From the NCBI GenBank assembly GCA_902766975.1, contig CACXFH010000099.1:1-50366 (forward strand): a stretch of 50,366 nucleotides of DNA, in the 5' to 3' direction. This DNA comes from an uncultured bacterium. Its GTDB lineage: Bacteria; Cyanobacteriota; Vampirovibrionia; Gastranaerophilales; Gastranaerophilaceae. The position numbers were made by a program, and so were the translations under genes. Positions 14,059 through 49,260 of the stretch are shown piece after piece. The notes beneath the pieces are model-generated. The model saw nothing but the letters and a program-made list of their open reading frames with translations. It made no database searches and was not told the origin of the DNA. Numbering within the stretch: position 1 is the first letter of the stretch; each line of letters begins with the position of its first letter.

Positions 14059-14071
14059 GTCTTTTTAAGAC

Positions 14072-17000: not shown

Positions 17001-17749
17001 GATCCGGTTCCGTTTCCTTCGGCTGAAATTATAATATGCCCGTTCCCATCACTTGCAAAAGTATTTGCTGTATTTAAATTGTCCGCATTTACAAGGTTAT
17101 TAAATAAAGCATTTGCCATTGCCTGAGAATCCATTTTTACCATCTTATTGGCATTAACTCCGCCGACAACAACAGCATCTTTTGCAATGTCAACGGTTGA
17201 TGCTTTCAATTCCACATCGCCTGCTGTTACGATTTTACCGTTAACTTTAATTGCTCCGCCTGAATTTACGTCATAGTCTTTTAAAGCTGCTAAGCCTTCA
17301 GCGGTTTGATTACGTTTAATTTGGTTATATCCGTATGAATCAGGAGCATAAACACCCAATGAACCGACGTTTAGCACCCCGGATGCGCCTACAACCATTC
17401 CGTTCGGAGATACAAATACTGCATTCCCGTTGTAAAAAGCGTTACCTCTTACGGAATTTACGATACCATTAATGTTAATTTGATTATCTACCAAGTTTAC
17501 AAAAGTATTGATATCGGCAAAATTCAAGTTTGCGATATCTCCTTGGGTTAAATTAAATTTTTCGTAGTGGCGGAAACCCGTTCCTCCGTCTACTTTTGTC
17601 GGGTCAATGTTGAACACTCCACTTGTTTGATTAAAACCCGAAATCTCACTGGCAACGACACTCAGTGCCATCGTTTGTTGAAGCATAAACACACCTGTCA
17701 TGAGAGATGCGATTATTCTTCTTTGAGTTTTCCTACTCTTTCTCATCAT
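14072..17749 (-). CDS. TPS-domain beta-helix exoprotein with (TPEP)n spacer and C-terminal PilZ domain
   Basis: 1225-aa ORF. The signal peptide is [33 protein letters not shown]. The TPS domain carries [16 protein letters not shown] and [27 protein letters not shown]. Beta-helix coils follow, then ~150 aa of TPEP repeats, then a terminal PilZ-like domain. GAAAGGA lies 8 nt before the ATG. Confidence 0.85.
14075..14400 (-). other. PilZ-like domain (C-terminus of 14072..17749)
   Basis: The sequence is [10 protein letters not shown]..(22 aa)..[39 protein letters not shown]...AGARFVNLD. The RxxxR motif lies at 14373-14387 and the DxSxxG motif at 14288-14305. Confidence 0.7.
14452..14911 (-). repeat. 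Coding tandem repeat: 12-nt unit encoding (TPEP)n, ~150 aa
   Basis: ggttccggtgtt / ggctcaggagtc-type units are reiterated with synonymous variation. The array is markedly GC-richer than its surroundings. It creates long stop-free artefact ORFs in other frames. Confidence 0.9.
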
Positions 17750-17939
17750 GTTCCGAATCCTTTCATTTTATGATTACTTGTAATAACATTTTGAGTTCTG
17801 CCTGCTATATGGCTTTTTGAAGCACACACAGCCATGAGCATGACATTATTATTTTTCTATAAATATATAAACGTATTGTTATATGTAAATATTTACTTTT
17901 TTTTGGTAAATGTTAATAAAAATTTACATTTAATTTATA

Positions 17940-17973
17940 AAAGGGTATAAGTTTTAATTACTAATACCCTTTT
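17940..17973 (-). terminator. Possible terminator after the third TpsA-like gene
   Basis: aaagggtat (17940-17948) pairs with ataccctttt (17964-17973) around a 15-nt loop. On the minus strand it is followed by a T-rich tract. The loop is long, so support is moderate. Confidence 0.45.
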
Positions 17974-17988
17974 ACAACATTTATATAT

Positions 17989-20900
17989 CTATTTCAGTGA
18001 GATTTTATTTACTTCATCAAGTACCATATTCAAATATAGTAATTGGTTTGCAGTTGCCTGATCAAGATTTACAAATTCTGCTCCTGCCCTGCTGTTGGTT
18101 GCGGAAACAACTTTTGCATTTGCCTTGATGTCTAATGAACCATACTTCATATGAATTGGAATAATATCTCCGACTTTGAGGTTATGGTCGTGTCTTACTG
18201 CTACACCGCCCCTCGAAACATCAAGCAATGTATCTACAGAATCATTTCTTTCCAATGATATCGGATTTTTGTTACTCGAAACAGTATATCTTACATATTG
18301 ACGTTTATCTATTGTATCAAGATTATCTTCATCGATTCTGTTTTTGTACAAAAGCTTGGTATCATTATCCGGCCCGACAGTTGGACCTTGAGTCGGTTCG
18401 GTTGTCGGAGCTGTAGTTGGTTCAGTTGTCGGAGTTGTAGTCGGTTCGGTTGTCGGAGTTGTAGTTGGTTCGGTTGTCGGAACTGTTGTTGGTTCGGTTG
18501 TCGGAACCGTTGTTGGTTCGGTTGTCGGAACCGTTGTTGGTTCAGTTGTCGGAACTGTTGTTGGTTCTGTTGTCGGAACCGTTGTCGGTTCTGTTGTTGG
18601 TTCGGTTGTCGGAACCGGAGTTGGCTCAGATGTCGGAACCGTAGTTGGTTGTTCTGTTGGTTCCAAAGTTGGTTCAACAGTCGGTGGCTCCGTTGGTTCA
18701 GGAGTTGGTTCAGTTGTCGGATCGGTAGTCGGATCCGAAGTCGGTTCTGAAGTTGGTTCTGCTGTCGGAGGTTCAGTCGGTTGAGGAGTTGGTTCAACCG
18801 TCGGCTCTACTGATGGTTCAACAGTCGGCTCTGCAGTTGGCTCTACTGTCGGTACCGGAGTTGGTTCAGGAGTCGGAGCATCGGTGATTTCCAACGGAGT
18901 AGCGTCAACAATTCCGTCTTTTGGTTCGTCAACATGTGATTGTTCCTCTCCAAATACGCCATCTCCATCTCCCGGGTTATAATAATAATTTCTTTCATGT
19001 TCATCTCTGCCAATGCCTGTAACATCTTCAGGTCTGACTGCGTGCCCTGTAGGGATATCAGGACCGTTTGAAACAGATATACCTTCTATTTTATTTGTTG
19101 AGGGATCAGGTTCTTTTGAAAATCCGTCTTTACCTAAATGTGTCGCAACTCCATTTGCATAAATGTTATCTGCAACCACATCCAATTGTCCTTTATCCAA
19201 TTTCCCGTCATTGATTCTTACAACGGAATCGGCATAGCCGTAATAACCGCCATCCACGTCAGTTCCGTTCGGTCTGACGGTTTTGTTTATATCAAGTGCT
19301 TTAACAGTTGCATTATTGGGGATTGAATCTGTTTCTCCGACACCTGTATAACCGCCGTTTGGCAAATTCGGATTATCTGCAAGACCGTTTGTTCTTGGTC
19401 CGAAATAATCAACAGGAGTTCTTGGAACTGTCCCCAAATGATTAATTTCTAATGATTTACCTCTTGCAATGATGTTCATATCTTTTTCTGCAGTAACTTC
19501 GTCTATGTACGTATTTCCGGCAAATTCGGCATTCAATTCGCCTTCTCTTGAAATCATTGAACAAACATTATTGACAGAATATTTATCATCTAAGCCTTTA
19601 ATATTAATATTTTCATTGGCTAAAACATCCATCCCGTATCCTTTGCTCGGGACAGGGGCACTCTTTGTTGCTAACACTCCGGGTTGAGTTTGGTTGAATG
19701 TTAATGGTGCATTCTCAGTGCCTATATTTTTACTTGCAATTAATGATAAACCATACCCTTGAACATTGGGTTTAGCCGCATTTTTTGATGCGTTATTAAT
19801 ATTGTATCTTGTAATGCCGTCGTTCTGATTATAATCAGTTGTGAGAATTACACGACCGTCTGCATCAATATTGTCTATGTTCATATCGGAATTTACGGCA
19901 GCATAATTTATTACAAAGTTATTTTGTTTAACCGCGGTTGAATCTGTTGTTTTTGCTGTAACAGCACCGTTAATATGTCCGTTTATTGATTTTGCATAAT
20001 CTCTTGTAGTTTCGGCATTTGAAATTCCCGTACAATACCCGCCTGTGCAGTTATCCCCAACATTGAGGCCGATTGTACCGTCAGTGACATCCATATTCAA
20101 ATCGCCGCCTGCCTTTAATAATGTTTTAGCAGCATTTATGTGCATAATTCGAGCATCAGCCTGTTGGCTTTCATAATTCAAAATGCTGCCATTTTTTACA
20201 TTTATATCAATATTTTTTCCTGCGGTAATATAATTATTGTTTGATGTTCTGTCACCTATTACAACATTACCGCCGTTTTCTTTAATGTAAACATTATTAT
20301 CAGCATTTGTTAAACCTTTATGAGCAATACCGGAAACGGATGTATCATTCATTAAAACATCTTGGTTAGAGTCAACTTTACCTGAAGATGCTATTAAAAT
20401 ACCGTCACTTCCTCTGTTCGTAAGTTCAACATTGCCGTTTGAACCGATATTACCGCTTAATATAATTCCTCTTGTTGATAAATTATTTACGGATGTAACT
20501 CCTTTGCCGTGGTTCATAACGGAGCCTGAAACGTCTGTCCCGTTTACGGATGTAAATGTGATTGCCCCGCCATTTTTACTCATATTTTTGGCAGATTTCA
20601 TGCTGCTTGTATTTACAAGTTGTTCAAATACGTTATCATCAAAAGTACTCACAACTCCCGTACCGTTTGCAATCATTTTGCCCGGCACATTAATTTTAGA
20701 TGAAACAATGTCTATATCCTGAGCCGCAAGAACTTTACCATCAATTTTTACAATACCGTCCCCTGCGTTATTAGGATTTTTTAATGCCGACAAATTAGAA
20801 CTTGGGTTATTTTTATAGTGTTCATAAACAGTACTGTTTGGAGTGTATACCCCCAAAGAACCGACATTTAAAACCCCTGAAGCTCCGACTATCATCCCGT

Positions 20901-21273
20901 TTGGAGAAACAAATATAGCCCTTCCGTTATAAAAATTGTTATCTCGCATTGTATTTACAACCCCGTTGATTTTTATTTGGTTATCAACCAGGTTAACAAA
21001 TGAATTAATATTTTTATCGCCATATTTAAAAATTAAATTAGCAATATCTCCTTGACTCAGTTCAAAATCATGATATTTTCTTAAACCGATATCTGTATCT
21101 TTGATTACCGCAGTAGGATCTATAGTATAAACTCCATTCTGTCCCGTAATCTGTATACCTGTCGGATTGGTTATATTTGTTGCAAAAGCTGAAATCATCA
21201 TCGTCTGGTTTAGTAGAAATAATGAGGTCAATGCAGCAGAAATAAGTCTGGTTGTTCTTTTTCGGCTATTCAT
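17989..21273 (-). CDS. TPS-domain beta-helix exoprotein with Pro/Thr/Glu spacer and C-terminal PilZ domain
   Basis: 1094-aa ORF. The signal peptide and TPS domain are roughly 80% identical by eye to those of 10096..13779. The C-terminal half is collinear with 14072..17749 ([51 protein letters not shown]). It then has a TEPT/TVPT spacer and a PilZ-like end. Confidence 0.85.
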   Translation of the reverse strand: MNSRKRTTRLISAALTSLFLLNQTMMISAFATNITNPTGIQITGQNGVYTIDPTAVIKDTDIGLRKYHDFELSQGDIANLIFKYGDKNINSFVNLVDNQIKINGVVNTMRDNNFYNGRAIFVSPNGMIVGASGVLNVGSLGVYTPNSTVYEHYKNNPSSNLSALKNPNNAGDGIVKIDGKVLAAQDIDIVSSKINVPGKMIANGTGVVSTFDDNVFEQLVNTSSMKSAKNMSKNGGAITFTSVNGTDVSGSVMNHGKGVTSVNNLSTRGIILSGNIGSNGNVELTNRGSDGILIASSGKVDSNQDVLMNDTSVSGIAHKGLTNADNNVYIKENGGNVVIGDRTSNNNYITAGKNIDINVKNGSILNYESQQADARIMHINAAKTLLKAGGDLNMDVTDGTIGLNVGDNCTGGYCTGISNAETTRDYAKSINGHINGAVTAKTTDSTAVKQNNFVINYAAVNSDMNIDNIDADGRVILTTDYNQNDGITRYNINNASKNAAKPNVQGYGLSLIASKNIGTENAPLTFNQTQPGVLATKSAPVPSKGYGMDVLANENINIKGLDDKYSVNNVCSMISREGELNAEFAGNTYIDEVTAEKDMNIIARGKSLEINHLGTVPRTPVDYFGPRTNGLADNPNLPNGGYTGVGETDSIPNNATVKALDINKTVRPNGTDVDGGYYGYADSVVRINDGKLDKGQLDVVADNIYANGVATHLGKDGFSKEPDPSTNKIEGISVSNGPDIPTGHAVRPEDVTGIGRDEHERNYYYNPGDGDGVFGEEQSHVDEPKDGIVDATPLEITDAPTPEPTPVPTVEPTAEPTVEPSVEPTVEPTPQPTEPPTAEPTSEPTSDPTTDPTTEPTPEPTEPPTVEPTLEPTEQPTTVPTSEPTPVPTTEPTTEPTTVPTTEPTTVPTTEPTTVPTTEPTTVPTTEPTTVPTTEPTTTPTTEPTTTPTTEPTTAPTTEPTQGPTVGPDNDTKLLYKNRIDEDNLDTIDKRQYVRYTVSSNKNPISLERNDSVDTLLDVSRGGVAVRHDHNLKVGDIIPIHMKYGSLDIKANAKVVSATNSRAGAEFVNLDQATANQLLYLNMVLDEVNKISLK
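17992..18320 (-). other. PilZ-like domain (C-terminus of 17989..21273)
   Basis: The sequence is [12 protein letters not shown]...[39 protein letters not shown]...AGAEFVNLD. The RxxxR motif lies at 18289-18303 and the DxSxxG motif at 18205-18222. Confidence 0.7.
18368..18880 (-). repeat. Coding tandem repeat encoding a heterogeneous (T/V/E/P)4 spacer, ~170 aa
   Basis: The units are TPEP, TVEP and TEPT. The array includes five consecutive TEPTTVPT units (24-nt period, ggttcggttgtcggaaccgttgtt type). Confidence 0.9.
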
Positions 21274-39344: not shown

Positions 39345-40811
39345 TTATAATAATTCTCTCAGTTCTTTTTCTACTTCTTCAAACACGCTGTTCCAATCGC
39401 CGTTTTGTGGTTGTCTAAATAGTTTTATGCTGTCATACCAATCTGATTTAGAAAGATCATTGTGCCAGCGCCAATTATATACATGTGGCAGTAAAACCCA
39501 GCAGGGTTTGCACATTGCACCCGCAAGATGGGCAAGCGATGTATCGTTACAAATTATCAAATCCAAATTTTCAACAGCTCCTGCCGTCCACGAAAAATCC
39601 TTAAATGTATGCGCTAAATCAATTACATTATATTTATCTTTAATTTTCCCAAACTTTTCCGCCCCCTCAAATGTCTGGCAAGAATAAAATTGAGTATTTG
39701 GCAGTTCAAACAGTCTGAAAAAATCTTCAACATGTAAAATTCTGTCCTTATCATAATATGAATTTCCCTGCCATTTTATCCCGATTTTTAATTTATCGTT
39801 ATTGAAATAATTGTCTTTATAAAATTTCACTTTTCCTTCATCAGGTTTTAAATAGCCGTCATCATGGTGAATAAACATAGCATCTCCTGATTTCCCCAAA
39901 ACATAAGGCAGGCTCAAAAACGGCAGGTGGTAATCAAAATCCATATCCGCTTCATTTTTAAACATTCCCATAATCTCTGCACCATAAGAATTTTGTTCAA
40001 ACAACGGTTTTAATTCCTCTTGGGGTTTAAAAATAACTTTTTTACATCTTGAAACAAGTTCGCTCATAAAGCGGTAAAGCATAATAACATCCCCAAAGCC
40101 GGCTTCATAGTATGTATAAAGAGTTTTACCGGATAAATCTTCCTCCCCTGTCCAAATCGGTTTTTGTTTCATTAAATTGGGGTAAGTTTTTTCTTGAGAT
40201 ACAATTGCACTTTGTTTGCAAAGCCTTTGTTCAAAACATTTTAATCCGTCTTTATAATTTTTATCCTGCATATAAGCAAGCGACAAAAAATATGTCGTTT
40301 CCCAATCGTCAGGATGGATTTCCAAAACTTTTTTATAACATTCAATTGCTCCTTTTGTGTCGTTTTCGTTAAAACATAAATATGCAAGATTAAAATAAGA
40401 GTCAGAGCTGTCAGGCTTTAATTTTATCGCCTTATAATATGCTTCTTTTGCCTTGTCATATTGTGAGTTGTTTTTATATGCCATAGCAAGATTGAATGTA
40501 TTTTCATAGTTATCAGGATTGTTTTTTATAAGTATTTCATACAATTCAACTGCATTTTGGTAGTCTTCTTTTTGAAAATACATTTTTGCCAGATTTTCAA
40601 CATAAAAAGGCAATGGTTTTAAATCAATTGCTTTTTGTAAACATTCCAGCGCCTTATCAAACTGTCTTGCTTGAGTATATAATATTCCCAATAAATCCCA
40701 AACTTCGTGATTCTCTGGTTCCTCCGAAACGATTTGCTCATACAAATCTCTGGCTTGAGTTAACTGCCCTTTTTGGTGATATTCAAATGCCTGATTAAAT
40801 TTGTTTTGCAT
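39345..40811 (-). CDS. TPR-repeat protein fused to a glycosyltransferase family 9 (heptosyltransferase-like) domain
   Basis: 488-aa ORF with N-terminal TPRs. The C-terminus carries IGIKWQGN... and CNDTSLAHLAGAMCKPCWVLL, which resembles the GT9 nDsGpmHlAaAlg.P motif. Confidence 0.6.
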   Translation of the reverse strand: MQNKFNQAFEYHQKGQLTQARDLYEQIVSEEPENHEVWDLLGILYTQARQFDKALECLQKAIDLKPLPFYVENLAKMYFQKEDYQNAVELYEILIKNNPDNYENTFNLAMAYKNNSQYDKAKEAYYKAIKLKPDSSDSYFNLAYLCFNENDTKGAIECYKKVLEIHPDDWETTYFLSLAYMQDKNYKDGLKCFEQRLCKQSAIVSQEKTYPNLMKQKPIWTGEEDLSGKTLYTYYEAGFGDVIMLYRFMSELVSRCKKVIFKPQEELKPLFEQNSYGAEIMGMFKNEADMDFDYHLPFLSLPYVLGKSGDAMFIHHDDGYLKPDEGKVKFYKDNYFNNDKLKIGIKWQGNSYYDKDRILHVEDFFRLFELPNTQFYSCQTFEGAEKFGKIKDKYNVIDLAHTFKDFSWTAGAVENLDLIICNDTSLAHLAGAMCKPCWVLLPHVYNWRWHNDLSKSDWYDSIKLFRQPQNGDWNSVFEEVEKELRELL

Positions 40812-40816
40812 GTAAA

Positions 40817-40853
40817 GCCCCTCACCTGCCCTCTCCCCGAAGGGGCGAGGAAA
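40817..40853 (+). repeat. Compact reference copy of the GC-rich palindromic mini-element
   Basis: The sequence is gcccctcacctgccctctccccgaaggggcgaggaaa. The arms cctctcccc/ggggcgagg pair at 8 of 9 positions around the loop gaa. The minus-strand complement places GGTGAGGGG 6 nt before the ATG at 40811. Confidence 0.7.
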
Positions 40854-40863
40854 TTTAATATGC

Positions 40864-41844
40864 TTATATTTTTATTCCGATGGAGGAGAATAATCCGTTT
40901 ATATTAAATACATTATACTGAAAGATTAAACCTAAAATTGTGCCGACCAGTACAAGTATTCCTAAAATTATTAATGTATCTTTTTTGTCCCCGTTTTTGC
41001 GAAGCAAGACTAAAATTCCGAGTCCACCTGAGGTACACAAGCCCGCAATCAATGAGCCGAAACTGATTGTATTTTTAACAAACAACATTGTCAGCATAAC
41101 AGATATTGCACAATTCGGGATTAACCCTACAAGCGAAACCAAAAACGGCTGCAGCGGTGAATTCATCAGACAATATTTTGCCATAACTTCTTCTGAGCCT
41201 GCTCTTGAAAGTATAAAAGCCAAAACAACAGAAATCAAAAATATAAATACAAAAATATTTAGTGTATGTTTCAGCGGATGAATCCAAAAATCTCTTTTCC
41301 TTGTTGCATGTATCAGATGGTGATGGCAGCAACCCTCAATATCCTCCTGATGCGCATGCTCCAATACCGGCTCTTTTGCATTATATGTAATCAGCCAATC
41401 GACTATATATCCGATAAGTATGGCTACAATAATTTTTATTCCGATAATAGGCAAAATCAAAGGTGCTTTTTGCGGATATGTTAATAATACCGGAATTGCC
41501 TCATCGGAAGTAGCCAAATACACCGCTACTAACGTCCCGCGACTCAATAATCTGCGTGTGTAAACCGTACTTGCAATAACAGAAAAGCCGCACTGAGGAA
41601 TTGACGCAAATAATGAACCAAACAACGGTCCGACCTTCTTTATCCAAAATACAAACAGGTGACGTTTTTTTGCGTAATATCTTTCAATGACTTCTATAAG
41701 AACAAATATCAGGAATAAAAACGGAATCAAACCAACGCTGTCAATCAGAGCATCTTTTAAAAAATCAGGAATAAATTCAATCGGTTCTATAAGTTCTTCC
41801 GGCATATTCCATATAAATTTTAAAACTTCAACAATAGAGTTCAT
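40864..41844 (-). CDS. Polytopic membrane protein, putative 10-TM metal exporter (ArsP_2/DUF2899-like)
   Basis: 326-aa ORF with about 10 hydrophobic segments. It carries IPQCGFSVIAS, ATSDEAIP and a Cys/His-rich loop HAHQEDIEGCCHHHLIH. The family assignment is from memory. Confidence 0.45.
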   Translation of the reverse strand: MNSIVEVLKFIWNMPEELIEPIEFIPDFLKDALIDSVGLIPFLFLIFVLIEVIERYYAKKRHLFVFWIKKVGPLFGSLFASIPQCGFSVIASTVYTRRLLSRGTLVAVYLATSDEAIPVLLTYPQKAPLILPIIGIKIIVAILIGYIVDWLITYNAKEPVLEHAHQEDIEGCCHHHLIHATRKRDFWIHPLKHTLNIFVFIFLISVVLAFILSRAGSEEVMAKYCLMNSPLQPFLVSLVGLIPNCAISVMLTMLFVKNTISFGSLIAGLCTSGGLGILVLLRKNGDKKDTLIILGILVLVGTILGLIFQYNVFNINGLFSSIGIKI

Positions 41845-41854
41845 TTACATTTTC

Positions 41855-44812
41855 CTATAATTTAATATTGTTTTGAGAACAAAAATCATTTAATTTTTCT
41901 TTTTCAAAATTTAACAAATCTTTAATACACTGATTTTGAGTTTCTTTTACAATTAGTTCCATAGATTTTTCAAACATTACGGCTGCACCTCGTAAATACT
42001 CAATTTGATTTTGCGTTGCGACTTTACCTATATCCATATAGTATTTACCGTACAATAGATATAATCTTGAAAGAACATCATACATTTTACATTTTTTTGC
42101 AAGTTTCAAGCTTTCTTCAATATTTATTTTTGCGCTTGTATAATCAGCAATATTCATATAAGCTTTTGCAAGCACCAACCTTAAATTAACCGCAAAGAAA
42201 TAATTTTCAATATTGGGGTTTAGCGAAATTTCAAGAGCCTGTGAGGCTATATCAATTGCACTTTTAGAGTTTTCGGTAATAATTGTTGCATCCGCAATCA
42301 AATACCATGCAAGTAATGCCCCTAAAGCCATTTTTTCTTTAGCAAAATATGTTACCTGCTCATTGTATATCTCCAATGCATGCTGAGCTTTATTTTCATC
42401 TCTAAATACTTTCCCAAGAAGGGTCTTTAATATATTTTTGGTGAAATTATCGCCTGCGTTATTCGCAAAAGTGACAGCTTCAAACAAGTCGTTTTTTAAA
42501 TCGGTTTTATCATTTGTCAAAAATTTGTTTATTATATAAACCAAATTTAAGCGAGAAACAGAAATCTCATCCATAAAATTATCACGATAATGTGAATCAA
42601 TATCTTGTAACTGTTTCATTGATGCAGGTATATTCCCTCGCATAGTGTAAGCATAAGCCTGTACGATTTTTGCTTTTGCAATCAGTTGTTTATCATTAAT
42701 TTTATGTTTATCTATAATTGCAAATAAATTTTTTAATACCTCAAATGCTCTTTCATTCCCTTGCAAAGCCAATGCCGTTGCAAGTACAAGATAAACTTTT
42801 AGCCACGTATCAAATAACAACCCGAGCGGAAATAATTTATTCAATCTTGGCTTTGAAAGGTATTGATTTAAAACGGGTAATACATCATTATCAGCAAGTG
42901 ATATTACTTCTCCGCAATTCCCTATATCAAGGAGTGCTTGAAGTTTTGCGCTTATAATCATCGCTTTTTCAAGTTCTTGACCTTCTTTTAATTTCTTCAA
43001 TACATTATCTGCGCACTCAACATTGCCAAAGTAATTTCCTATTTTCGAACAGCATAATGCAAGGTACCCCAAAAGTTCTATTTCCTTGACTTCATCATTG
43101 TTTGCTCTTGCGTTGGAAATTGCATCCGGCAAAAATTCCAAAGCTTCATCAGGATCATATTCAGATAAAAGCTTACCTAATTTTTCGCTTATATTATATC
43201 TTATTTTTATTGTTTCAGCTTCATTAAACTCATTAAGCAAAGCTAAACACTGTTTTTGAGCAATTACATATAAATTTATATCTCCAATATATGCTGCAAG
43301 TCGTGTTGTTTTTGTCCAAATATCAAATGACATCCTTGTTTGGTGTAAATTATGGGCAATCATCGCCATTGTTGCATTTGTGTTTAAATTGAAAACGCTG
43401 ATTGCTTTGCCGATTTTTATGTTTATATCGTCAAATTCAGAATCTCTTGTAATATTTTTAAGCACTGTTTCCCACAACAGCAGATTATTAAACTCATAAT
43501 AAATATCATCAAATTTTCGAATAAATTTCGATATTTCCAAATAGTTTATAACGTCATAAAATTCGGATTCATTAAATGCAAGAATTTCCCTGATAAGATT
43601 TATATTAATTTTATCTCCTAAAATCGCAGATGTACATAAAACTTTATATGCTGTTTTATTGGATTTTTTTAGAATTCCCAACCGCTCTTTAACTAATTGC
43701 GAAAAGTCTTCGGACAATATAAAAGCCTTATCCGTAATTTTACAATCAAAGGCATAACTGATTGCTTGCTGTATGTATGCGAGGTTCCCTTTGGATTTTT
43801 CCAAAATCAGTTCCCGTTCTCTTTCGGAAATTTCAATATCTTGGTTTATGTTAAACTTAACATCTTTTTCGAATTCGGATTCCGTAACTGATTTTAAATT
43901 TATATCAACAAATGAACCTAAATTTTTATTATCCAGACCAAATAATCCGCATACAGGTTTTGGCTTGTTGTATAGAATTACAAATTTAAGATTGCTCCAG
44001 TTCTTCTCTTTTCTAATTACATTAGTGATAAATTCGGCACTGAAGCCGTCAATAAAATCAAAATTATCTATGACAAATATAAATCTTCCGCTTGAGATAA
44101 ATGCGTCAAATATTTTACCTAAAATGGAGTATGTACGCTTTTTATTAATTATGATATCTTCGTAATTGCCGTCACTAAAAGAATACATGAAATTTATTAA
44201 ATCTGATATTTCAGGCGGTTGCAGGAATTTAAATTCTTTTGAGAAAAACTCATTTGCCTGTTTTTTTAATTCGGGGGTATCAATCCCGAAATTAGGTAAA
44301 CTGAAAAGATTTAAAAGCATATCCTGAATAACTCCGCCCGGAGTTAGCTGGGTTAACGGAGTGCATTTACCAAAGCATATATTTTTATCTTCAATTTTTT
44401 TTATCCCAGAATATAAAACGGAAGTTTTACCACAACCCTTTTCTCCTGCAATTGAAATTATTTTAACATTTTTGTTTGAAAGAGCGCTTGTCAAAGTTTC
44501 TAACCCGTTTTTAAATGAGCAGAATGTTGGGGTGAAAATTAGTGAGTTACTTTTGTTTTTTGGTTTATCTTTTTTATTTTCGGCAATTCCAAAATCGGCT
44601 CCGCATTTTCTGCATTTTAGAGCTGTCGGGAAATTTACTCCATTGCATTTTTTACAAATTTTCAGTAATTCTTGACCGCATTGAGAGCATTTTAACTGCC
44701 CGACAGGATTTACATGTTTGCAATTTGTACATAAAACCCCTGTTCTTGTTTTGCAATACGGACATTTTAACGCATCATGAGCTATATTATTTTTACATAC
44801 GGGACATTTCAT
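41855..44812 (-). CDS. Triple zinc-ribbon / P-loop NTPase / helical-repeat (STAND-like) protein
   Basis: 985-aa ORF. Residues 1-72 carry three CxxC...CxxC ribbons. Walker A GEKGCGKTS lies at 44420-44446 and a Walker B-like FIFVIDNFD follows. The last ~600 aa form a helical TPR-like region. Confidence 0.7.
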   Translation of the reverse strand: MKCPVCKNNIAHDALKCPYCKTRTGVLCTNCKHVNPVGQLKCSQCGQELLKICKKCNGVNFPTALKCRKCGADFGIAENKKDKPKNKSNSLIFTPTFCSFKNGLETLTSALSNKNVKIISIAGEKGCGKTSVLYSGIKKIEDKNICFGKCTPLTQLTPGGVIQDMLLNLFSLPNFGIDTPELKKQANEFFSKEFKFLQPPEISDLINFMYSFSDGNYEDIIINKKRTYSILGKIFDAFISSGRFIFVIDNFDFIDGFSAEFITNVIRKEKNWSNLKFVILYNKPKPVCGLFGLDNKNLGSFVDINLKSVTESEFEKDVKFNINQDIEISERERELILEKSKGNLAYIQQAISYAFDCKITDKAFILSEDFSQLVKERLGILKKSNKTAYKVLCTSAILGDKININLIREILAFNESEFYDVINYLEISKFIRKFDDIYYEFNNLLLWETVLKNITRDSEFDDINIKIGKAISVFNLNTNATMAMIAHNLHQTRMSFDIWTKTTRLAAYIGDINLYVIAQKQCLALLNEFNEAETIKIRYNISEKLGKLLSEYDPDEALEFLPDAISNARANNDEVKEIELLGYLALCCSKIGNYFGNVECADNVLKKLKEGQELEKAMIISAKLQALLDIGNCGEVISLADNDVLPVLNQYLSKPRLNKLFPLGLLFDTWLKVYLVLATALALQGNERAFEVLKNLFAIIDKHKINDKQLIAKAKIVQAYAYTMRGNIPASMKQLQDIDSHYRDNFMDEISVSRLNLVYIINKFLTNDKTDLKNDLFEAVTFANNAGDNFTKNILKTLLGKVFRDENKAQHALEIYNEQVTYFAKEKMALGALLAWYLIADATIITENSKSAIDIASQALEISLNPNIENYFFAVNLRLVLAKAYMNIADYTSAKINIEESLKLAKKCKMYDVLSRLYLLYGKYYMDIGKVATQNQIEYLRGAAVMFEKSMELIVKETQNQCIKDLLNFEKEKLNDFCSQNNIKL

Positions 44813-44820
44813 AATAACAC

Positions 44821-45438
44821 TTATTGTTCATTGAGAACATTTTTTACTTTTTCAATCAAACTATATATTCTTTTTGAAACTTCGGATTGTGAAATTCCCA
44901 ATTCATGAGCAATTTCTTTCTGGGTTAATCCTTTATCATAACGAAGAATGAATATATCCATATAGCGTTCATTTGGTGCTTCCTGATTAACGCGTTCGAT
45001 TGTGTCTGCTACAAAATCTATTATTTCATTGTGAATAGCGTTTTCTTCAGGATCTATAGATATATCTAAATCTTCATATCCGATTTTTACGATACTTAAA
45101 TCAATTAGCGACGAAGGTGCAGGTGTCGGTGCAACTGTCAATTCCGCAACAGGAGCGACTGTTTCAAGCGGGACTTCGGTTGTAGTCATGTAGCCTGTTT
45201 TTGTTCTTCTTAACCTGCCGGAATCTTTCAAAACACTGAGAATAGACGTTGTTACAACTTTTCTCAAATATGCTTCCAGTGTTGCATCATTTTCTATCAC
45301 CCCAATTATAGAAGTGGAGCGACGGCATGTTTCATTCAAAAAATCATCGAACAAATCTTCATTATTTGCAAATTTGCGATCACTTTTTATTATTTTAGCT
45401 ATTAAATCTATCTTCTCTTGTGTAATTTCCACAAACAT
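44821..45438 (-). CDS. Sigma-70 family (ECF-like) sigma factor with a long inter-domain insert
   Basis: 205-aa ORF. It has a region-2-like N-terminus (EDLFDDFLNETCRR...LEAYLRKVVTTSILSVLKD) and a region-4 HTH (LTQKEIAHELGISQSEVSKRIYSLIEKV). A ~70-aa linker, including VAPVAELTVAPTPAPSS, separates them. Confidence 0.6.
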   Translation of the reverse strand: MFVEITQEKIDLIAKIIKSDRKFANNEDLFDDFLNETCRRSTSIIGVIENDATLEAYLRKVVTTSILSVLKDSGRLRRTKTGYMTTTEVPLETVAPVAELTVAPTPAPSSLIDLSIVKIGYEDLDISIDPEENAIHNEIIDFVADTIERVNQEAPNERYMDIFILRYDKGLTQKEIAHELGISQSEVSKRIYSLIEKVKNVLNEQ

Positions 45439-45467
45439 ATCCCTTTGTCATGGAAATTATATCATAT

Positions 45468-48400
45468 TTACAGATAAATTTTAAGTATCACCGTTGTACT
45501 TTCGTCATTTCCCAGACTACTAGGGGCTTTCAACACTTTCAATGTTTGGTTAACAGATTGTAACACTATGTTGTCTACTTGCGATGAGCCGCTTGATAAA
45601 AGGATTTTTGTATTTTTTAGTCCGCCGCTTTGGTCAAAAGTAATACTTAACCGAATTTGGTCGGAATACGCATAGTCTGTTGCAAGTAGTAAATCACTGG
45701 ATAGACCTGCTTTCAGGCTTTTACCTGCAGATTGGAAGTATTGTTTGAAGTTGTTGTCAAGAGAAATATAATCAGGAACTTCCCAACTTAATTTTCTTAC
45801 TGACATGAATGCAGTGTCAGGTATTTGCTTTAAATTATCCTTATTTGGTTGAACTGCCGGTTCTTGTTGCAGTTTATTTCTTCTCATTTCAAAATCTTGA
45901 TTGGAATTGTTCATTGCTATATTGCTGTTATTATTTATATTCATCTCAGGAACATTCCCGCCCATGTTATTTTGAATATCCATATTCCCTGCAATATCAT
46001 TATTTGTATTTTGTTGCGGGCTCATAAATTTGGCAATTGAAAAAATTATCAGTCCTGCTAATATTATGAATACCGTCAACCCTCCTGCCAGTGCGACAAC
46101 AGGAACGGATTTCCCCTTCTCATTTATGATTCGAACATCATTATTAAGAGCCGAATTTTCGTTTAACACGTTTTCGTTGTTATATAGTTCTTCAAGATGC
46201 TGATTTTCGACCGAAAAATCAAGTTCGGAATCGTTTTTGTTTATATCAATTATAATTTCTCCGGGAGTTTGATTTTTGTCGCTTATGATTGTTGAGTTTT
46301 CTTTTACCGTATTGACAGGAGTAATTTCCGGAGAATTCAAATCGAAATCATCAATAGATGTATAATCTGCGTCGTTGTTTGTAAAATTAACTTCAACATT
46401 TGAAATGTTTTCATCCTGACTTTCGGTCAATTCTGAAAGATCAATTAATTCATAATCATTATTATCCTCTGCAGGAATTTCAGCTGCTTCGGTAGGAATT
46501 TGGTCAAAATCCAACGTATTTTCAAATGGTTTTGCTTCTGTCTGATAGTCAGGTAATACAAATGTCGAATCCTCCATATCAATATTTATCGGATCAAGAG
46601 TTTTCAAATCTCCATTTTCAAATATTTGATTTTTATTGGATTCTTCTGATTCTTCGGGTTCTTCTGATTTTTCTATTTCATTCAATGAAATAAAATTATC
46701 ATTCTGTTCCGTTTCTGTCAGGTTGTTTATATTGTTAATATTGTCATTGTTTTCAAGTTCATCAAAATTAATTAATAGATTATCCTCTTGGTCAAGATTG
46801 ATAGTAAAATCTTCTTGAGTTTCATCATCTTCTTTTTTTGTTTCTTCATCTGAGATGAATTTTTCTTGTGTTGAATCGTCCGGCAATAAATCTTCACTAT
46901 CACTTTTGCTTACTTTTTCATCCGTAACGTTATCATCCTCTCGCTTAGACTCCTGTTCGGTAACTAAGGTTTCAGTAGTATTATTATTTTCTTCTTCAAA
47001 TTTATCAGAAATTGATTCGTCAAATATATCGTCAAAATCGCTATCAAAGTCTATTTGTATATCATCGTCAGTTTCGGTATCTGCCTTGTCAATTATTTGA
47101 TTACTTTCGTTAATGGAATCTTCTTCTATTTCTTCATTGGCATTTGTTTCTATCAATTCAGAATCTTGTAAGGTATCGTTTTGTTCTTCTTCGTTGAAAT
47201 CTATAAAATCTTCTGAAGCTTGCAATTCCATGTCTTCTTCAAAATCTTTAAATGTTGTATCTTTATCTTCATTTATGTCCGTTTCGAATTCCAAATTATC
47301 ATCAAATTCATCATTATCTTTTTCGGGTTCAGGTTCTGCTGAAATTTGGGTTTCTTCGTTTATATCGATATCGTACAGGTCAGATTCTAAATCTTGATTT
47401 TCGGTTTGTTCAATTTCTGACCGGTTATCTTCAAAATTTATGTCTATATCTTCATTGATATCTTCATTTAAATTCGGAAAATCTTGTTCTTCCAAGTTAT
47501 CTGTTATGTTTAGATTAATATCGTCTTTGATTAAATTGTCATGGTTGATGTTATTGTCTGAAATATCGTTATTTATGTCTGTATTATTATCATCGTTATT
47601 TAAATCTTTGTTCGCAATTGCTTCCCCCGCAAGAGCCGCAAGTTCTATTGCTTCACCCGTTGCAGCGCTTTGAACAATATTTTGTGCGCCTGCTGCCACC
47701 TCAAGACCTGCGGCAGCTGTTGCGCCTGCAATTTTAACAGCATCTGCGATATTATCAACCTCTTTATTATTTTCTGTATCTTTGAGGTTGTAGGTTTGTT
47801 CGTTGGTGACATTGTCTTCAAGCATATCATCGCCGTTATAATCTTCAAGTTTTTCATTATCATCATCATTCTTATCTGTATTATTATCTTCTTCTGATGA
47901 TTCATCCATATCTATGAAATCATCAAAATCTACGACTGTATTTTGCACGGTATTTTGTTCTTTTTTATTTATACGCAGTGCAATTGCTACATTTGATGCT
48001 AATGTTTCAAAATTATCATATTCTAAAACCGAAGCTCTCAGTATTTTACTCTTTACAAGTAATTGCATAAAATCTTTAAATTCGGCATCGCTGATATCAT
48101 GATCTGCAACTTTTATTGATAATTCTCTCCCTTTGAGTATTTCTTCCTGTGAAATACTTTTTTCGGTAGCACCGTTATAGTTATTTATATAGTCCAACAT
48201 ATCAAATGGGGATTTAAACATCTCTGCATCAACAAAGTAATATTCATCATTTGCATTGTGCAATTGTACTTTTGAAGGCTCAAAAAATCCGATTAGATTA
48301 ATCTTTTCAAAATTATTATCATATTTTAAAACTGCATAGATGTCAGGAACAATAGATAGTTCAAAGTGAGATTTTGGGATGAATACCCCTGATTTATCGA

Positions 48401-48665
48401 ATGCAACTCGTACATCTATGTGTATGTTGTCCAGTATAATATCAGATATATCAATTTTTTCAACAATACGTTTTATGGAATGGATATTTGCTAAATTTGA
48501 AATATCTCTGCCTAAATTTCCTAAATAGTTTATTACGCTTTCAGCCGCAATCGCATCAAAGAATATGCGATTTTGCAATTTTTTATTAATAAAATTTGCG
48601 GCCATAAATTGTGCCTCAGCAATGTTATCTTTAGTTATTTCCAATAATTCTACATCAAAACTCAT
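45468..48665 (-). CDS. Giant hyper-acidic single-pass membrane protein with a TonB-C-like C-terminal domain
   Basis: I place the start at MSFDVELLEI (ATG 48663-48665), with GAGGGGAG 10 nt upstream. The track ORF extends 36 codons further to 48773. The protein has a ~230-aa globular N-domain and a ~640-aa D/E/N-rich low-complexity region. A single TM (VPVVALAGGLTVFIILAGLIIFSIA, ~46024-46105) follows, then an N/Q/M-rich spacer. The tail is IRLSITFDQSGGLKNTKILLSSGSSQVDNIVLQSV. Confidence 0.65.
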   Translation of the reverse strand: MSFDVELLEITKDNIAEAQFMAANFINKKLQNRIFFDAIAAESVINYLGNLGRDISNLANIHSIKRIVEKIDISDIILDNIHIDVRVAFDKSGVFIPKSHFELSIVPDIYAVLKYDNNFEKINLIGFFEPSKVQLHNANDEYYFVDAEMFKSPFDMLDYINNYNGATEKSISQEEILKGRELSIKVADHDISDAEFKDFMQLLVKSKILRASVLEYDNFETLASNVAIALRINKKEQNTVQNTVVDFDDFIDMDESSEEDNNTDKNDDDNEKLEDYNGDDMLEDNVTNEQTYNLKDTENNKEVDNIADAVKIAGATAAAGLEVAAGAQNIVQSAATGEAIELAALAGEAIANKDLNNDDNNTDINNDISDNNINHDNLIKDDINLNITDNLEEQDFPNLNEDINEDIDINFEDNRSEIEQTENQDLESDLYDIDINEETQISAEPEPEKDNDEFDDNLEFETDINEDKDTTFKDFEEDMELQASEDFIDFNEEEQNDTLQDSELIETNANEEIEEDSINESNQIIDKADTETDDDIQIDFDSDFDDIFDESISDKFEEENNNTTETLVTEQESKREDDNVTDEKVSKSDSEDLLPDDSTQEKFISDEETKKEDDETQEDFTINLDQEDNLLINFDELENNDNINNINNLTETEQNDNFISLNEIEKSEEPEESEESNKNQIFENGDLKTLDPINIDMEDSTFVLPDYQTEAKPFENTLDFDQIPTEAAEIPAEDNNDYELIDLSELTESQDENISNVEVNFTNNDADYTSIDDFDLNSPEITPVNTVKENSTIISDKNQTPGEIIIDINKNDSELDFSVENQHLEELYNNENVLNENSALNNDVRIINEKGKSVPVVALAGGLTVFIILAGLIIFSIAKFMSPQQNTNNDIAGNMDIQNNMGGNVPEMNINNNSNIAMNNSNQDFEMRRNKLQQEPAVQPNKDNLKQIPDTAFMSVRKLSWEVPDYISLDNNFKQYFQSAGKSLKAGLSSDLLLATDYAYSDQIRLSITFDQSGGLKNTKILLSSGSSQVDNIVLQSVNQTLKVLKAPSSLGNDESTTVILKIYL

Positions 48666-48743
48666 GATTATAATCTCCCCTCTATTTATTAAGAGAACGC
48701 CTTTTATAAAAATATTCCAAAATTTATGTAAATTTTTGTAACA

Positions 48744-48773
48744 ATAATAGTAAAACTTGATTTTTTTTGTCAA
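48744..48773 (-). promoter_or_regulatory. Sigma-70-type promoter for the 48665->40864 gene string
   Basis: On the minus strand, TTGACA (48768-48773) is followed by an 18-nt spacer and TATTAT (48744-48749), about 80 nt upstream of the preferred start. Confidence 0.5.
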
Positions 48774-48834
48774 AATTAGTCTGGTGGTTGTTTTTACTAT
48801 TATGTGAAGTAAATGTGTTTAAGGAGGTTTTCCT

Positions 48835-49260
48835 ATGTCATTAATGGTTAATCCTGTTTCAAATGTAAGTTTTAGTGCTCAAGACGCGGTAGCAGAGCAT
48901 AAATTAACTCCGGAAGAAATTTTGAGCAGACCGGGTGCTTTTGCTAAACCAGAACCGCAGGTTGCAAATAAACCGCCTAAAAAACATAAAGCTCTAAAAA
49001 CTTTCCTGGGGATACTTGTTGGGGCTGCTGTTGTGGCCGGAACTTTGGTTGCTTTAAAACATTCTTTCAAAGATACGTTTAAAATTGTAGAAAATATTAA
49101 AGATCTTAATTTACAAGGTCCTAAAAAATATAAAACTTATTTGACATCAGGGATTGCTAAAGGCGCTGAGTATGTGGAGGCTGGTGCAGGTTGGCTGACA
49201 AAACAATGCACTGATATGTATGATAAACTTCTGAAATCTTTAAAAATCAGAAAGGCATAA
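48835..49260 (+). CDS. Small single-pass membrane protein, function unknown
   Basis: 141-aa ORF with AAGGAGG 7 nt before the ATG. It has one TM (FLGILVGAAVVAGTLVAL) and is followed by a terminator. Confidence 0.55.
   Translation: MSLMVNPVSNVSFSAQDAVAEHKLTPEEILSRPGAFAKPEPQVANKPPKKHKALKTFLGILVGAAVVAGTLVALKHSFKDTFKIVENIKDLNLQGPKKYKTYLTSGIAKGAEYVEAGAGWLTKQCTDMYDKLLKSLKIRKA

What the first reader, a model, noticed from the sequence alone, without database searches (positions are those of the whole stretch)
41855..48773. Candidate signalling module: giant acidic membrane protein, insert-bearing sigma factor and zinc-ribbon STAND NTPase in one transcription unit
Seen: the minus-strand genes 48665->45468, 45438->44821 and 44812->41855 are separated by only 29 and 8 nt, and the 41844->40864 membrane protein follows after 10 nt. 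A TTGACA-N18-TATTAT promoter lies at 48744-48773. The three core products are:
1. a ~1065-aa protein with a large cytoplasmic N-part, one TM and a TonB-C-like periplasmic tail;
2. a 205-aa sigma-70-family protein with sigma-2-like and sigma-4 regions split by a ~70-aa insert;
3. a 985-aa protein with three N-terminal zinc ribbons, a Walker A/B NTPase and ~600 aa of TPR-like helices.

Established knowledge: ECF-type sigma factors are usually co-transcribed with their membrane anti-sigma partner. STAND NTPases are ligand-triggered switches, common in conflict and defence or signalling systems.

Inference: this looks like a three-component switch, with a transmembrane sensor or anti-sigma-like tether, a sigma factor and a STAND regulator. 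I cannot map it to a described system. The N-domain of the giant protein reminds me of the cyanobacterial DUF1822 family, but that is from memory only.
Basis: partly seen in the sequence, partly recalled or inferred. Interest (0 to 1): 0.7.

Follow-up and report, generated by a model that had tools for sequence, protein, structure and literature searches.

The report
Conserved sigma-factor signalling operon in Gastranaerophilales
A tightly packed gene set, kept in the same order across gut and rumen Gastranaerophilales (non-photosynthetic relatives of cyanobacteria), encodes a small sigma factor, a giant acidic membrane protein and a large ATP-driven switch protein; it is probably an uncharacterised way of controlling a sigma factor, but its signal and targets are unknown.

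Summary
- The 205-aa protein is an ECF-like sigma factor.
- The 985-aa protein has three zinc ribbons, a MalT-type STAND NTPase and a TPR array.
- The 1065-aa protein has a DUF1822-like N-domain, a 627-aa acidic linker, one TM helix and a TonB_C-like tail.

The order giant, sigma, STAND is kept wherever the contig extends far enough: 79 of 85 related loci carry giant and sigma, and all but two of those, cut at the contig end, also carry the STAND. Flanking genes differ between lineages. The N-domain scan found relatives in 190 species genomes.

- a divergent small membrane-protein gene, present in 83 of 86 loci;
- an intergenic region more conserved than the coding DNA, including TTGGAATATTTT-N8-GTGTCATCT just upstream of the giant gene.

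The ArsP_2 gene is not part of the core. The sigma "insert" is a variable linker of about 27 aa relative to RpoE, not 70.

A related pairing (DUF1822 + ECF sigma + CHAT protease) was noted in cyanobacteria by Kaur et al. 2021, so this is a new variant, not a new kind. The best reading is a chromosomal sigma-control module. The mechanism is inferred, not shown.

The parts
48835..49260 (+). Divergently transcribed small single-pass membrane protein (141 aa). It has the N-terminal motif VSFR..(D/N)ILSRPGAF, a KKH/KKKS basic patch, a TM helix and an amphipathic tail. No Pfam family. Probable fourth member of the conserved unit.
   Evidence: A divergent ORF of 115-250 aa starts about 165-190 nt (range 122-244) from the giant gene in 83 of 86 loci, and all are homologous by jackhmmer. 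No Pfam or NCBIfam hit.
48666..48834 (.). Shared intergenic control region, more conserved than the coding DNA across the order.
   Evidence: In an alignment of 84 non-redundant upstream regions, the blocks AAAAC.acT.A, ATTTTGaC, TTGTTACAAAAaTTTACA, TTGGAATATTTT and GTGTCATCT are at least 90% identical. No Rfam family matches.
48744..48773 (-). The -35 lies in the conserved block ATTTTGAC.
   Evidence: In most orthologs the same DNA also reads on the other strand as TTGAAA-N17-TGtCAAAAT, facing the divergent gene. That reading is my own.
48727..48741 (-). TTACAAAAATTTACA: a direct repeat of TTACA with a 10-bp period. Nearly invariant in orthologs. Candidate operator.
   Evidence: GTTACAAAnnTTTACA occurs at 75 own sites and only once elsewhere in 1.5 Mb.
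48692..48720 (-). Bipartite element TTGGAATATTTT-N8-GCGTTCTCT (ortholog consensus GTGTCATCT). Candidate ECF-type autoregulated promoter, about 25-35 nt before the ribosome-binding site.
   Evidence: The spacing is exactly 8 nt in 59 of 59 matched loci. The element is the only site in the 50-kb window and occurs once per locus. No shuffle reached the score threshold of 12, against 26.2 for the window site.
45468..48665 (-). Giant protein, 1065 aa: DUF1822-like N-domain, acidic disordered linker, TM helix, N/Q-rich spacer and TonB_C-like domain.
   Evidence: It is a single ORF of 803-1325 aa in 75 of 79 loci.
47961..48665 (-). N-domain (aa 1-235), matching the N-terminal half of DUF1822. It is an alpha/beta domain, possibly of restriction-endonuclease-like fold. 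Invariant residues: N60, E69, D72, D75, H82, D84, R86, K98, H100.
   Evidence: AF2 model with pLDDT 84.9 and pTM 0.81. Foldseek against BFVD gives 9 hits at E<=1e-3, two of them named restriction endonuclease. The PDB search gave nothing significant, but the top hits are NaeI, HincII and AspBHI.
46104..47960 (-). Acidic low-complexity linker (31% D+E and 5% K+R over aa 236-862). Poorly conserved and of variable length.
46029..46103 (-). Single TM helix (aa ~855-879).
   Evidence: Hydrophobic stretch VPVVALAGGLTVFIILAGLIIFSIA, aligned in orthologs.
45471..45818 (-). TonB_C-like C-terminal domain (aa ~950-1065). Together with the core of the N-domain, it is the best conserved part of the protein.
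   Evidence: TonB_2/TonB_C match 13 of 13 orthologs, best E 1.3e-7 and 2.8e-6.
44821..45438 (-). ECF-like sigma-70-family factor (205 aa): a divergent sigma-2, a variable Pro/Ala/Thr linker, and sigma-4.
   Evidence: TIGR02937 at 72.6 bits against a cut-off of 42.9. Sigma70_r4 at 1.9e-9. hhalign to RpoE covers sigma-2 and sigma-4, E 1.2e-4.
44594..44812 (-). Three N-terminal zinc ribbons of the STAND protein (aa 1-73). All 12 Cys are invariant.
   Evidence: DZR at 3.2e-7. Invariant C3, C6, C17, C20, C28, C31, C42, C45, C53, C56, C67, C70.
43433..44515 (-). NTPase/NOD module (aa ~100-460). Walker A is GEKGCGKT. Walker B is VIDNFDFID, with an invariant D249-N250.
   Evidence: Foldseek top hit is 6mfv_A, a STAND-TPR protein, at E 5.5e-10; MalT (8bob_C) gives TMt 0.60.
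41855..43375 (-). TPR-like helical sensor array (aa ~480-985), followed by the stop codon.
   Evidence: All-helical, with pLDDT mostly 80-96. TPR/APC/LGN structural matches.

Best explanation
This is a vertically inherited, order-wide regulatory module of Gastranaerophilales, built around one ECF-like sigma factor.

The conserved unit has four genes and a shared control region:
- a divergent small membrane protein;
- the giant bitopic protein, with a cytoplasmic DUF1822-like domain, an acidic disordered linker, a TM helix and a periplasmic TonB_C-like domain;
- the sigma factor;
- a cytoplasmic MalT-type STAND NTPase, with three N-terminal zinc ribbons and a C-terminal TPR sensor.

Proposed mechanism (inferred, not shown):
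1. The sigma factor is kept inactive by a protein partner. The most likely partner is the cytoplasmic DUF1822-like domain of the membrane protein, because DUF1822 is the constant neighbour of sigma-like genes in cyanobacteria too. The zinc-ribbon head of the STAND protein is the alternative.
2. A periplasmic or envelope cue read by the TonB_C-like domain releases the sigma factor. A cytoplasmic ligand read by the TPR array could do the same by switching the NTPase and clustering its zinc ribbons.
3. The freed sigma factor transcribes its own operon from the conserved bipartite element next to the giant gene, plus targets elsewhere in the genome that could not be seen here.

It is a distant variant of the cyanobacterial sigma + DUF1822 + CHAT-protease neighbourhoods. 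Here a STAND NTPase replaces the protease, and DUF1822 is fused to a membrane anchor.
For: Shown:
- The gene order giant, sigma, STAND is kept on one strand. Giant gene and sigma are both present in 79 of 85 related loci, and all but two of those (L063 and L074, whose contigs end just after sigma) also carry the STAND.
- From the giant gene's stop to the start of the sigma match is 30-43 nt in those loci.
- The N-domain scan found relatives in 190 species genomes.
- Flanking genes differ between lineages.
- The STAND protein is 43-83% identical over its full length in the loci.
- The sigma factor is ECF-like.
- The STAND/MalT fold is supported.
- DUF1822 and TonB_C assignments hold at family level.
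- The giant gene is one ORF in 75 of 79 loci.
- The divergent small gene is present in 83 of 86 loci.
- The control region is conserved, and its bipartite element has a fixed spacing.
- In cyanobacterial plasmids, DUF1822 lies next to a protein with a sigma-4-like HTH and next to CHAT/CHASE2 proteins. This matches Kaur et al. 2021 (PMC8195603).

Context is housekeeping:
- Neighbours are AspRS, ArgRS, alanine racemase and PGM.
- There are no PADLOC hits.
- There are no relatives in IMG/VR.
Against: - No protein-protein contact was tested. No known anti-sigma domain (ZAS or RskA type) is detectable in any partner.
- The similarity of the N-domain to cyanobacterial DUF1822 is weak. The window protein is below the Pfam cut-off, profile-profile E is 0.023, and only the N-terminal half matches.
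- Only the sigma-4 HTH is shared with the cyanobacterial sigma-like partner.
- The N-domain's invariant acidic, His and Lys residues and its endonuclease-like fold could mean an enzyme, not a sigma-binding domain.
- In the window the second half of the bipartite element has diverged: GCGTTCTCT instead of GTGTCATCT.
- Its half-site spacing (GGAAT-N13-GTGTC, or GGAAT-N15-GTC) is shorter than in typical ECF promoters (established knowledge).
- No second target site was found within +-10 kb of any locus.
Confidence: 0.5

Rival explanations
1. It is an NLR-like conflict or defence system. The STAND protein senses an invader protein. The DUF1822 domain, with its endonuclease-like fold, is the effector. 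The sigma factor switches on a wider response. This is how Kaur et al. frame the cyanobacterial relatives.
For: - STAND NTPase with a TPR sensor.
- Endonuclease-like fold with invariant acidic residues.
- The published framing of DUF1822 + ECF sigma + caspase neighbourhoods as conflict systems.
Against: - The module sits in one fixed arrangement across the order, among housekeeping genes.
- The sensor region is conserved over its full length, at 46-83% identity, and shows no sign of diversification.
- There are no PADLOC matches, no relatives on viral contigs, and no integrase or transposase nearby.
- The invariant residues are not shared with cyanobacterial DUF1822.
Confidence: 0.12
2. The giant protein is the output, not the regulator. 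It would be an envelope-spanning TonB-like or tether protein whose expression is controlled by the sigma factor and the STAND protein, the latter acting like MalT or AfsR as a ligand-gated co-activator of the sigma-RNA polymerase complex.
For: - The TonB_C-like domain is among the best conserved parts of the giant protein.
- MalT is among the closest structural matches.
- The conserved promoter-like element sits directly upstream of the giant gene.
Against: - The TM helix lies at residue ~855, not at the N-terminus.
- It has no conserved His or Ser of the TonB SHLS type.
- No exbB or exbD gene lies next to it.
- The DUF1822-sigma pairing recurs in cyanobacteria without any TonB_C domain.
Confidence: 0.18
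3. The genes are merely neighbours, co-transcribed for convenience, with unrelated functions.
For: No direct functional link has been shown. Operons can hold unrelated genes.
Against: - Order and spacing are kept in every related locus whose contig extends far enough, while the flanks change.
- The true neighbour genes ArsP_2 and TPR488 did move or disappear in the same comparison.
Confidence: 0.05

Closest known systems
Cyanobacterial ECF sigma + DUF1822 + EACC2-caspase (CHAT) neighbourhoods (Kaur, Iyer, Burroughs, Aravind, eLife 2021, PMC8195603)
   Same: - A DUF1822-family gene lies next to a sigma/sigma-4 HTH gene and a large signal-processing protein.
- In the published systems the variable C-terminus of that third protein can be a STAND NTPase.
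- I confirmed the DUF1822 + sigma-4-like + CHAT/CHASE2 layout on Nostoc, Tolypothrix and Acaryochloris plasmids.
   Different: - Here there is no EACC2 or caspase/CHAT domain.
- The third gene is a zinc-ribbon MalT-type STAND.
- DUF1822 is represented only by its N-terminal half and is fused to an acidic linker, a TM helix and a TonB_C-like domain.
- The gene order differs: DUF1822 comes first and sigma second.
- The sigma is a compact 205-aa ECF-like protein, not a 410-490-aa protein.
- The locus is chromosomal, occurs in one fixed arrangement and is order-wide, not plasmid-borne and multi-copy.
- Sequence similarity is marginal.
Classical ECF sigma / membrane anti-sigma pairs (e.g. RpoE-RseA, SigW-RsiW, FecI-FecR)
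   Same: - A small two-domain sigma factor is co-transcribed with a single-pass membrane protein that has a cytoplasmic N-part and an extracytoplasmic C-domain.
- A candidate autoregulated promoter is present.
   Different: - No recognisable anti-sigma domain is present.
- The cytoplasmic part is about 850 aa, with a 627-aa acidic linker.
- The membrane protein gene precedes the sigma gene.
- A STAND NTPase is an obligate third partner.
- No protease gene is encoded in the locus.
MalT / PH0952-type STAND NTPases (AAA_16 + TPR)
   Same: Walker A and B motifs, a NOD module and a TPR sensor array. The best structural match is 6mfv_A, and MalT (8bob_C) is also matched.
   Different: - There is no DNA-binding domain of its own. 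MalT has a LuxR HTH and AfsR a SARP domain.
- Instead it has three N-terminal zinc ribbons and an adjacent sigma-factor gene.
- The Walker B second acid is an invariant Asn.
TonB and TonB_C-bearing signal transducers (from memory: BlaR1/M56-TonB_C proteins of Bacteroidota)
   Same: A periplasmic TonB_C-like domain follows a low-complexity spacer at the C-terminus of a bitopic membrane protein.
   Different: There is no N-terminal anchor with the SHLS motif, no ExbBD partner and no M56 peptidase. The cytoplasmic extension is very large.

Membership tests
ECF-type (group 4) sigma-70 family | Two-domain sigma factor (sigma-2 + sigma-4, no sigma-1.1 or sigma-3) that passes a family model | tested here: met
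   TIGR02937 scores 72.6 bits against a cut-off of 42.9, over residues 12-201. hhalign to E. coli RpoE aligns residues 32-197 to RpoE 48-181. The protein is 205 aa.
ECF-type (group 4) sigma-70 family | Recognisable sigma-2 domain by Pfam (Sigma70_r2) | tested here: inconclusive
   There is no Sigma70_r2 hit at E<=1. A profile search against PDB finds only sigma-4. The motifs EDLxDDFxNE and LEAYLRKVxTTSIxxVLKDxGRLRR fit regions 2.1-2.4 in the RpoE alignment.
ECF-type (group 4) sigma-70 family | Cognate anti-sigma factor and autoregulated promoter | not testable with these tools
   Candidates are the DUF1822-like domain, the zinc ribbons, the divergent small TM protein, and the element TTGGAATATTTT-N8-GTGTCATCT. 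No binding or transcription data are available.
DUF1822 (PF08852) | Match to the Pfam model above the gathering score, over the whole model | tested here: inconclusive
   The window protein scores 23 bits, below the cut-off of 25, at E 5e-5, and matches model positions 1-168 of 370 only. All 15 family members match, best 3.7e-11. Profile-profile E against four cyanobacterial members is 0.023.
ECF sigma + DUF1822 + EACC2-caspase system (Kaur et al. 2021) | DUF1822 gene adjacent to a sigma-factor gene | tested here: met
ECF sigma + DUF1822 + EACC2-caspase system (Kaur et al. 2021) | Constant EACC2 + caspase (CHAT) protein | tested here: not met
   There is no CHAT or peptidase hit in any protein of the locus or among the precomputed domains of the listed orthologs.
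STAND NTPase, MalT/AAA_16 clade | P-loop NTPase with Walker A and B, a helical/winged-helix NOD, and a C-terminal repeat sensor | tested here: met
   GEKGCGKT and VIDNFDFID are invariant. AF2 model pLDDT is 78.8. Foldseek gives 6mfv_A at E 5.5e-10 and 8bob_C (MalT) at TMt 0.60. AAA_16 is only 17.3 bits (cut-off 32.6) in the window protein but is precomputed in most orthologs.
TonB | C-terminal TonB_C domain | tested here: inconclusive
   The window protein is below the cut-offs (17.5 and 15.9 bits). All 13 orthologs match, best 1.3e-7. No structure was predicted for this domain.
TonB | N-terminal TM anchor with a conserved His (SHLS motif) and an ExbB/ExbD partnership | tested here: not met
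   The TM helix is at residue ~855 and has no conserved His or Ser. No exbBD genes are in the loci examined.
Class I / ZAS anti-sigma factors | N-terminal anti-sigma domain (zf-HC2 or RskA type) | tested here: not met
   No such Pfam or NCBIfam hit occurs in the giant protein, the STAND protein or the small divergent protein.
Known anti-phage defence systems (PADLOC, incl. Avs-type STANDs) | Match to a defence-system protein model | tested here: not met
   The giant, STAND and ArsP_2 proteins give no hits. The sigma factor gives only generic HTH hits.
PD-(D/E)xK nuclease fold (for the N-domain) | Restriction-endonuclease-like core with catalytic D...(D/E)xK | tested here: inconclusive
   Foldseek against BFVD gives hits at E 2e-5 to 1e-3, with TM-score 0.5-0.6 normalised by target length, two of them named restriction endonuclease. 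PDB hits (NaeI, HincII) are not significant, at E>=0.04 and TM-score 0.2. No sequence-level hit was found. The catalytic motif was not mapped onto the model.

The most novel reading that the evidence does not exclude
The DUF1822-like domain is a previously unrecognised class of sigma-binding (anti-sigma) domain. A MalT-type STAND NTPase gates its release. This would be an NLR-like, nucleotide-switched sigma/anti-sigma circuit that joins an envelope input (TonB_C-like domain) with a cytoplasmic ligand input (TPR array). It would share ancestry with the cyanobacterial sigma-DUF1822-CHAT systems, in which a protease plays the gating role.
Probability: 0.25. Interest if true: 0.75.

Novelty: new variant of a known kind. 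Interest (0 to 1): 0.55.

Why it matters
- Gastranaerophilales are widespread, uncultured gut and rumen bacteria with small genomes, and almost nothing is known about how they regulate genes.
- A sigma-factor module kept intact across the whole order, with an upstream control region more conserved than its own coding sequence, is likely to be one of their main regulatory circuits.
- If the DUF1822 domain or the zinc-ribbon STAND protein controls the sigma factor, that would add a new mode of sigma regulation. It would also give a function to DUF1822, a family common in cyanobacteria.
- The cis element and the compact sigma factor make this testable in a heterologous host.

Tried and rejected
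- PADLOC scan for defence families: nothing.
- Rfam over the region and the whole window: nothing. No tRNAs.
- tblastn of the N-domain against PLSDB plasmids: no match. IMG/VR scan: no relatives.
- Sequence-profile searches of the STAND protein, the N-domain and the C-domain against PDB gave only eL40 zinc ribbons, noise and a marginal TonB hit. PHROGs gave nothing consistent.
- Search for further copies of the bipartite promoter-like element by regex, PWM and nhmmer, over 1.5 Mb of loci plus the window: no significant site other than the operon's own. The regulon therefore could not be approached.
- A short shared motif (AAAAC.CCT...TTTTG.C...TTACAAAAATTTACA) lies upstream of a PAS histidine-kinase gene about 2 kb beyond the STAND gene in six loci. 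It was not significant by nhmmer, so it remains only a lead.
- The split giant genes in four loci (L001, L002, L004, L073) are treated as assembly frameshifts, because 75 of 79 loci have one ORF.
It was redone with database orthologs.
- Literature searches for sigma + STAND, Melainabacteria sigma factors and PF08852 found nothing specific.
- The metagenome scan was not used. An exact-pattern scan would mostly have returned the operon's own promoter.

Full report
**1. Observation**

The minus-strand ORFs are exactly as reported:
- giant gene 45468..48665 (ATG start, 1065 aa);
- sigma gene 44821..45438 (205 aa);
- STAND gene 41855..44812 (985 aa);
- membrane protein gene 40864..41844 (326 aa).

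The gaps are 29, 8 and 10 nt. The long ORF stays open up to a TTG at 48773. Ortholog N-termini and a GAGGGGAG ribosome-binding site support the ATG at 48665.

TTGACA-N18-TATTAT at 48773..48744 is the best sigma-70-like match in the region (11 of 12). Such matches are not enriched over shuffles (56 found, 54.5 expected). No convincing terminator lies between the genes.

**2. The proteins**

*Sigma factor*
- It passes NCBIfam TIGR02937 (sigma70-ECF) at 72.6 bits against a cut-off of 42.9, over residues 12-201.
- Pfam Sigma70_r4 scores 1.9e-9. Pfam does not detect Sigma70_r2.
- A profile of 16 orthologs aligns to E. coli RpoE across both sigma-2 and sigma-4 (E 1.2e-4). About 27 residues are extra in the linker.
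- In orthologs this Pro/Ala/Thr or acidic linker ranges from none to about 100 residues. The "70-aa insert" is therefore a variable linker.

*STAND protein*
- The DZR zinc-ribbon model is above its cut-off. AAA_16 and NB-ARC are weak in the window protein, but AAA_16 is precomputed for most orthologs.
- All 12 zinc-ribbon cysteines, Walker A (GEKGCGKT) and Walker B (VIDNFDFID, with D249-N250) are invariant.
- The AlphaFold model has pLDDT 78.8. Its best PDB match is 6mfv_A, a STAND-TPR protein, at E 5.5e-10. MalT (8bob_C) gives TMt 0.60.
- It is therefore a MalT/AAA_16-type STAND with no DNA-binding domain of its own.

*Giant protein*
- The N-domain alone hits DUF1822 at E 5e-5 (23 bits, cut-off 25), over model positions 1-168 of 370. 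All 15 family members hit DUF1822, best 3.7e-11.
- The C-terminal ~115 residues hit TonB_2/TonB_C weakly in the window but in 13 of 13 orthologs, best 1.3e-7.
- Between them lie a 627-aa linker (31% D+E, 5% K+R, poorly conserved) and one TM helix at about 855-879.
- The protein has no signal peptide, one TM helix and a TonB_C-type tail. This argues for an N-in, C-out topology (inference).

*N-domain fold*
- The N-domain models well (pLDDT 84.9, pTM 0.81) as an alpha/beta domain.
- Foldseek finds no significant PDB match, but the top hits are PD-(D/E)xK nucleases such as NaeI, HincII and AspBHI.
- Nine BFVD matches reach E<=1e-3, two of them annotated as restriction endonuclease.
- N60, E69, D72, D75, H82, D84, R86, K98 and H100 are invariant.
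- These residues do not appear conserved in cyanobacterial DUF1822, as far as the weak alignments show.
- The endonuclease-like fold is tentative, and catalytic activity is open.

**3. Conservation**

A degenerate-pattern scan of one genome per GTDB species found relatives of the N-domain in 190 genomes. Nearly all of the 80 retrieved loci whose record names a taxon are named Gastranaerophilales, Melainabacteria or cyanobacterium. About half are labelled only "uncultured bacterium", and a handful of bins carry other names.

tblastn of the window proteins against the loci gave:
- N-domain, TonB-like tail and sigma are all present, in the same order on one strand, in 79 of 85 related loci.
- All but two of those 79 (L063 and L074, whose contigs end just after sigma) also carry the STAND gene.
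- The STAND protein is 43-83% identical over all 985 residues. The sigma factor is 49-95% identical.
- From the giant gene's stop to the start of the sigma match is 30-43 nt.
- The giant gene is a single ORF of 803-1325 aa in 75 of 79 loci.

ArsP_2 and the 488-aa TPR protein follow only in the closest relatives. Elsewhere they are absent, upstream or inverted. They are neighbours, not members.

Flanks are housekeeping genes that differ between lineages.

An exhaustive profile search gave 776 cluster representatives at E<=1e-3, of which 731 were at E<=1e-10. The top 150 all carry the domain at the N-terminus and are mostly proteins of about 750-1370 aa. The family is compact and sits only at the edge of DUF1822.

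**4.

*A divergent small gene.* A single-pass membrane protein gene of 115-250 aa (window 48835..49260, +) lies opposite the giant gene in 83 of 86 loci. All copies are homologous.

*A conserved control region.* The ~135 nt before the giant gene are more conserved than the coding DNA. The conserved blocks, in order, are:
- AAAAC.acT.A
- ATTTTGaC
- TTGTTACAAAAaTTTACA
- TTGGAATATTTT
- GTGTCATCT

Details of this region:
- The last two blocks are always exactly 8 nt apart (59 of 59). The element occurs once per locus and once in the window, with none in the shuffles.
- In the window the second block has diverged to GCGTTCTCT.
- I read GGAAT...GTC, located 25-35 nt before the ribosome-binding site, as a candidate ECF-type autoregulated promoter.
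On the other strand it may also serve the divergent gene.
- Both readings are inference.

**5. Comparison with known systems**

Only two papers in the library mention DUF1822. Kaur et al. [quoted passage not shown]

On Nostoc, Tolypothrix and Acaryochloris plasmids I found this layout:
- a 410-490-aa protein that, in a profile of the four homologs, shows a sigma-4-like HTH (an individual Pfam hit only in the Acaryochloris protein);
- then DUF1822;
- then CHAT/CHASE2 proteins.

The pairing of DUF1822 with a sigma-like gene is therefore shared. The present locus differs in these ways:
- it has no CHAT or EACC2 domain;
- it has a zinc-ribbon STAND instead;
- it fuses a half-DUF1822 to a membrane anchor and a TonB_C-like domain;
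- it occurs chromosomally, in one fixed arrangement.

Sequence similarity between the two forms is marginal.

**6. Interpretation**

The best explanation is an order-wide sigma-control module with two inputs, one from the envelope and one from the cytoplasm. Its mechanism is inferred from architecture and analogy.

The defence reading is disfavoured for these reasons:
- the arrangement is fixed and syntenic across the order;
- the sensor is conserved, not diversifying;
- there are no PADLOC or viral matches;
- there are no mobile-element neighbours.

The TonB reading fails on the position of the anchor, the missing SHLS-type residues and the absence of exbBD.

**7. Verdict**

- The locus is a new variant of a known kind (ECF sigma with DUF1822 and a large signalling partner).
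- Interest is moderate to good, limited by the absence of any functional data.

Noticed in passing
window 48666-48834: This intergenic region is more conserved than the flanking coding DNA across 84 non-redundant loci. It holds five blocks at least 90% identical, including TTACAAAAATTTACA and TTGGAATATTTT-N8-GTGTCATCT with a fixed spacing. In the window the last block reads GCGTTCTCT.
   Followed up: yes
window 48835-49260 (+): A small single-pass membrane protein with no known family is transcribed divergently from the giant gene. It is conserved in 83 of 86 loci, so it is a possible fourth component or the true anti-sigma factor.
   Followed up: partly
L018 19410-19560, and the same place in L021, L023, L028, L038 and L048: A short module resembling the left part of the operon's control region (AAAACACCTAAA...TTTTTGCTAC...TTACAAAAATTTACA) lies upstream of a PAS/histidine-kinase-like gene, about 2 kb beyond the STAND gene. 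It was not significant by nhmmer.
   Followed up: partly
window 10096-21273 (-): Three tandem giant genes encode proteins of 1227, 1225 and 1094 aa. Two have PT or acidic repeats and a C-terminal PilZ (c-di-GMP-binding) domain, and the first has no Pfam hit. GC content is raised locally (0.42 against about 0.33).
   Followed up: no
window 39345-41844 (-): An ArsP_2 / 'arsenic efflux' family membrane protein (NF037962, 236 bits) and a 488-aa TPR protein follow the STAND gene at 10 and 52 nt. They keep this position only in the closest relatives and move or invert elsewhere.
   Followed up: yes
window 47607-47750 (giant protein aa 306-352): An Ala/Gly-rich segment (IADAVKIAGATAAAGLEVAAGAQNIVQSAATGEAIELAALAGEAIA) sits inside the otherwise acidic linker. 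Similar segments appear in several orthologs. Its function is unknown.
   Followed up: no
L001, L002, L004, L073: The giant gene is split into two frames within the low-complexity linker in these four contigs, against one ORF in 75 others. These are probably assembly or sequencing frameshifts in repetitive DNA.
   Followed up: partly
STAND protein aa 249-250 (window ~44063-44068): The second acidic residue of Walker B is an invariant Asn (VIDNFD) in all orthologs. This suggests slow or absent NTP hydrolysis (inference only).
   Followed up: no
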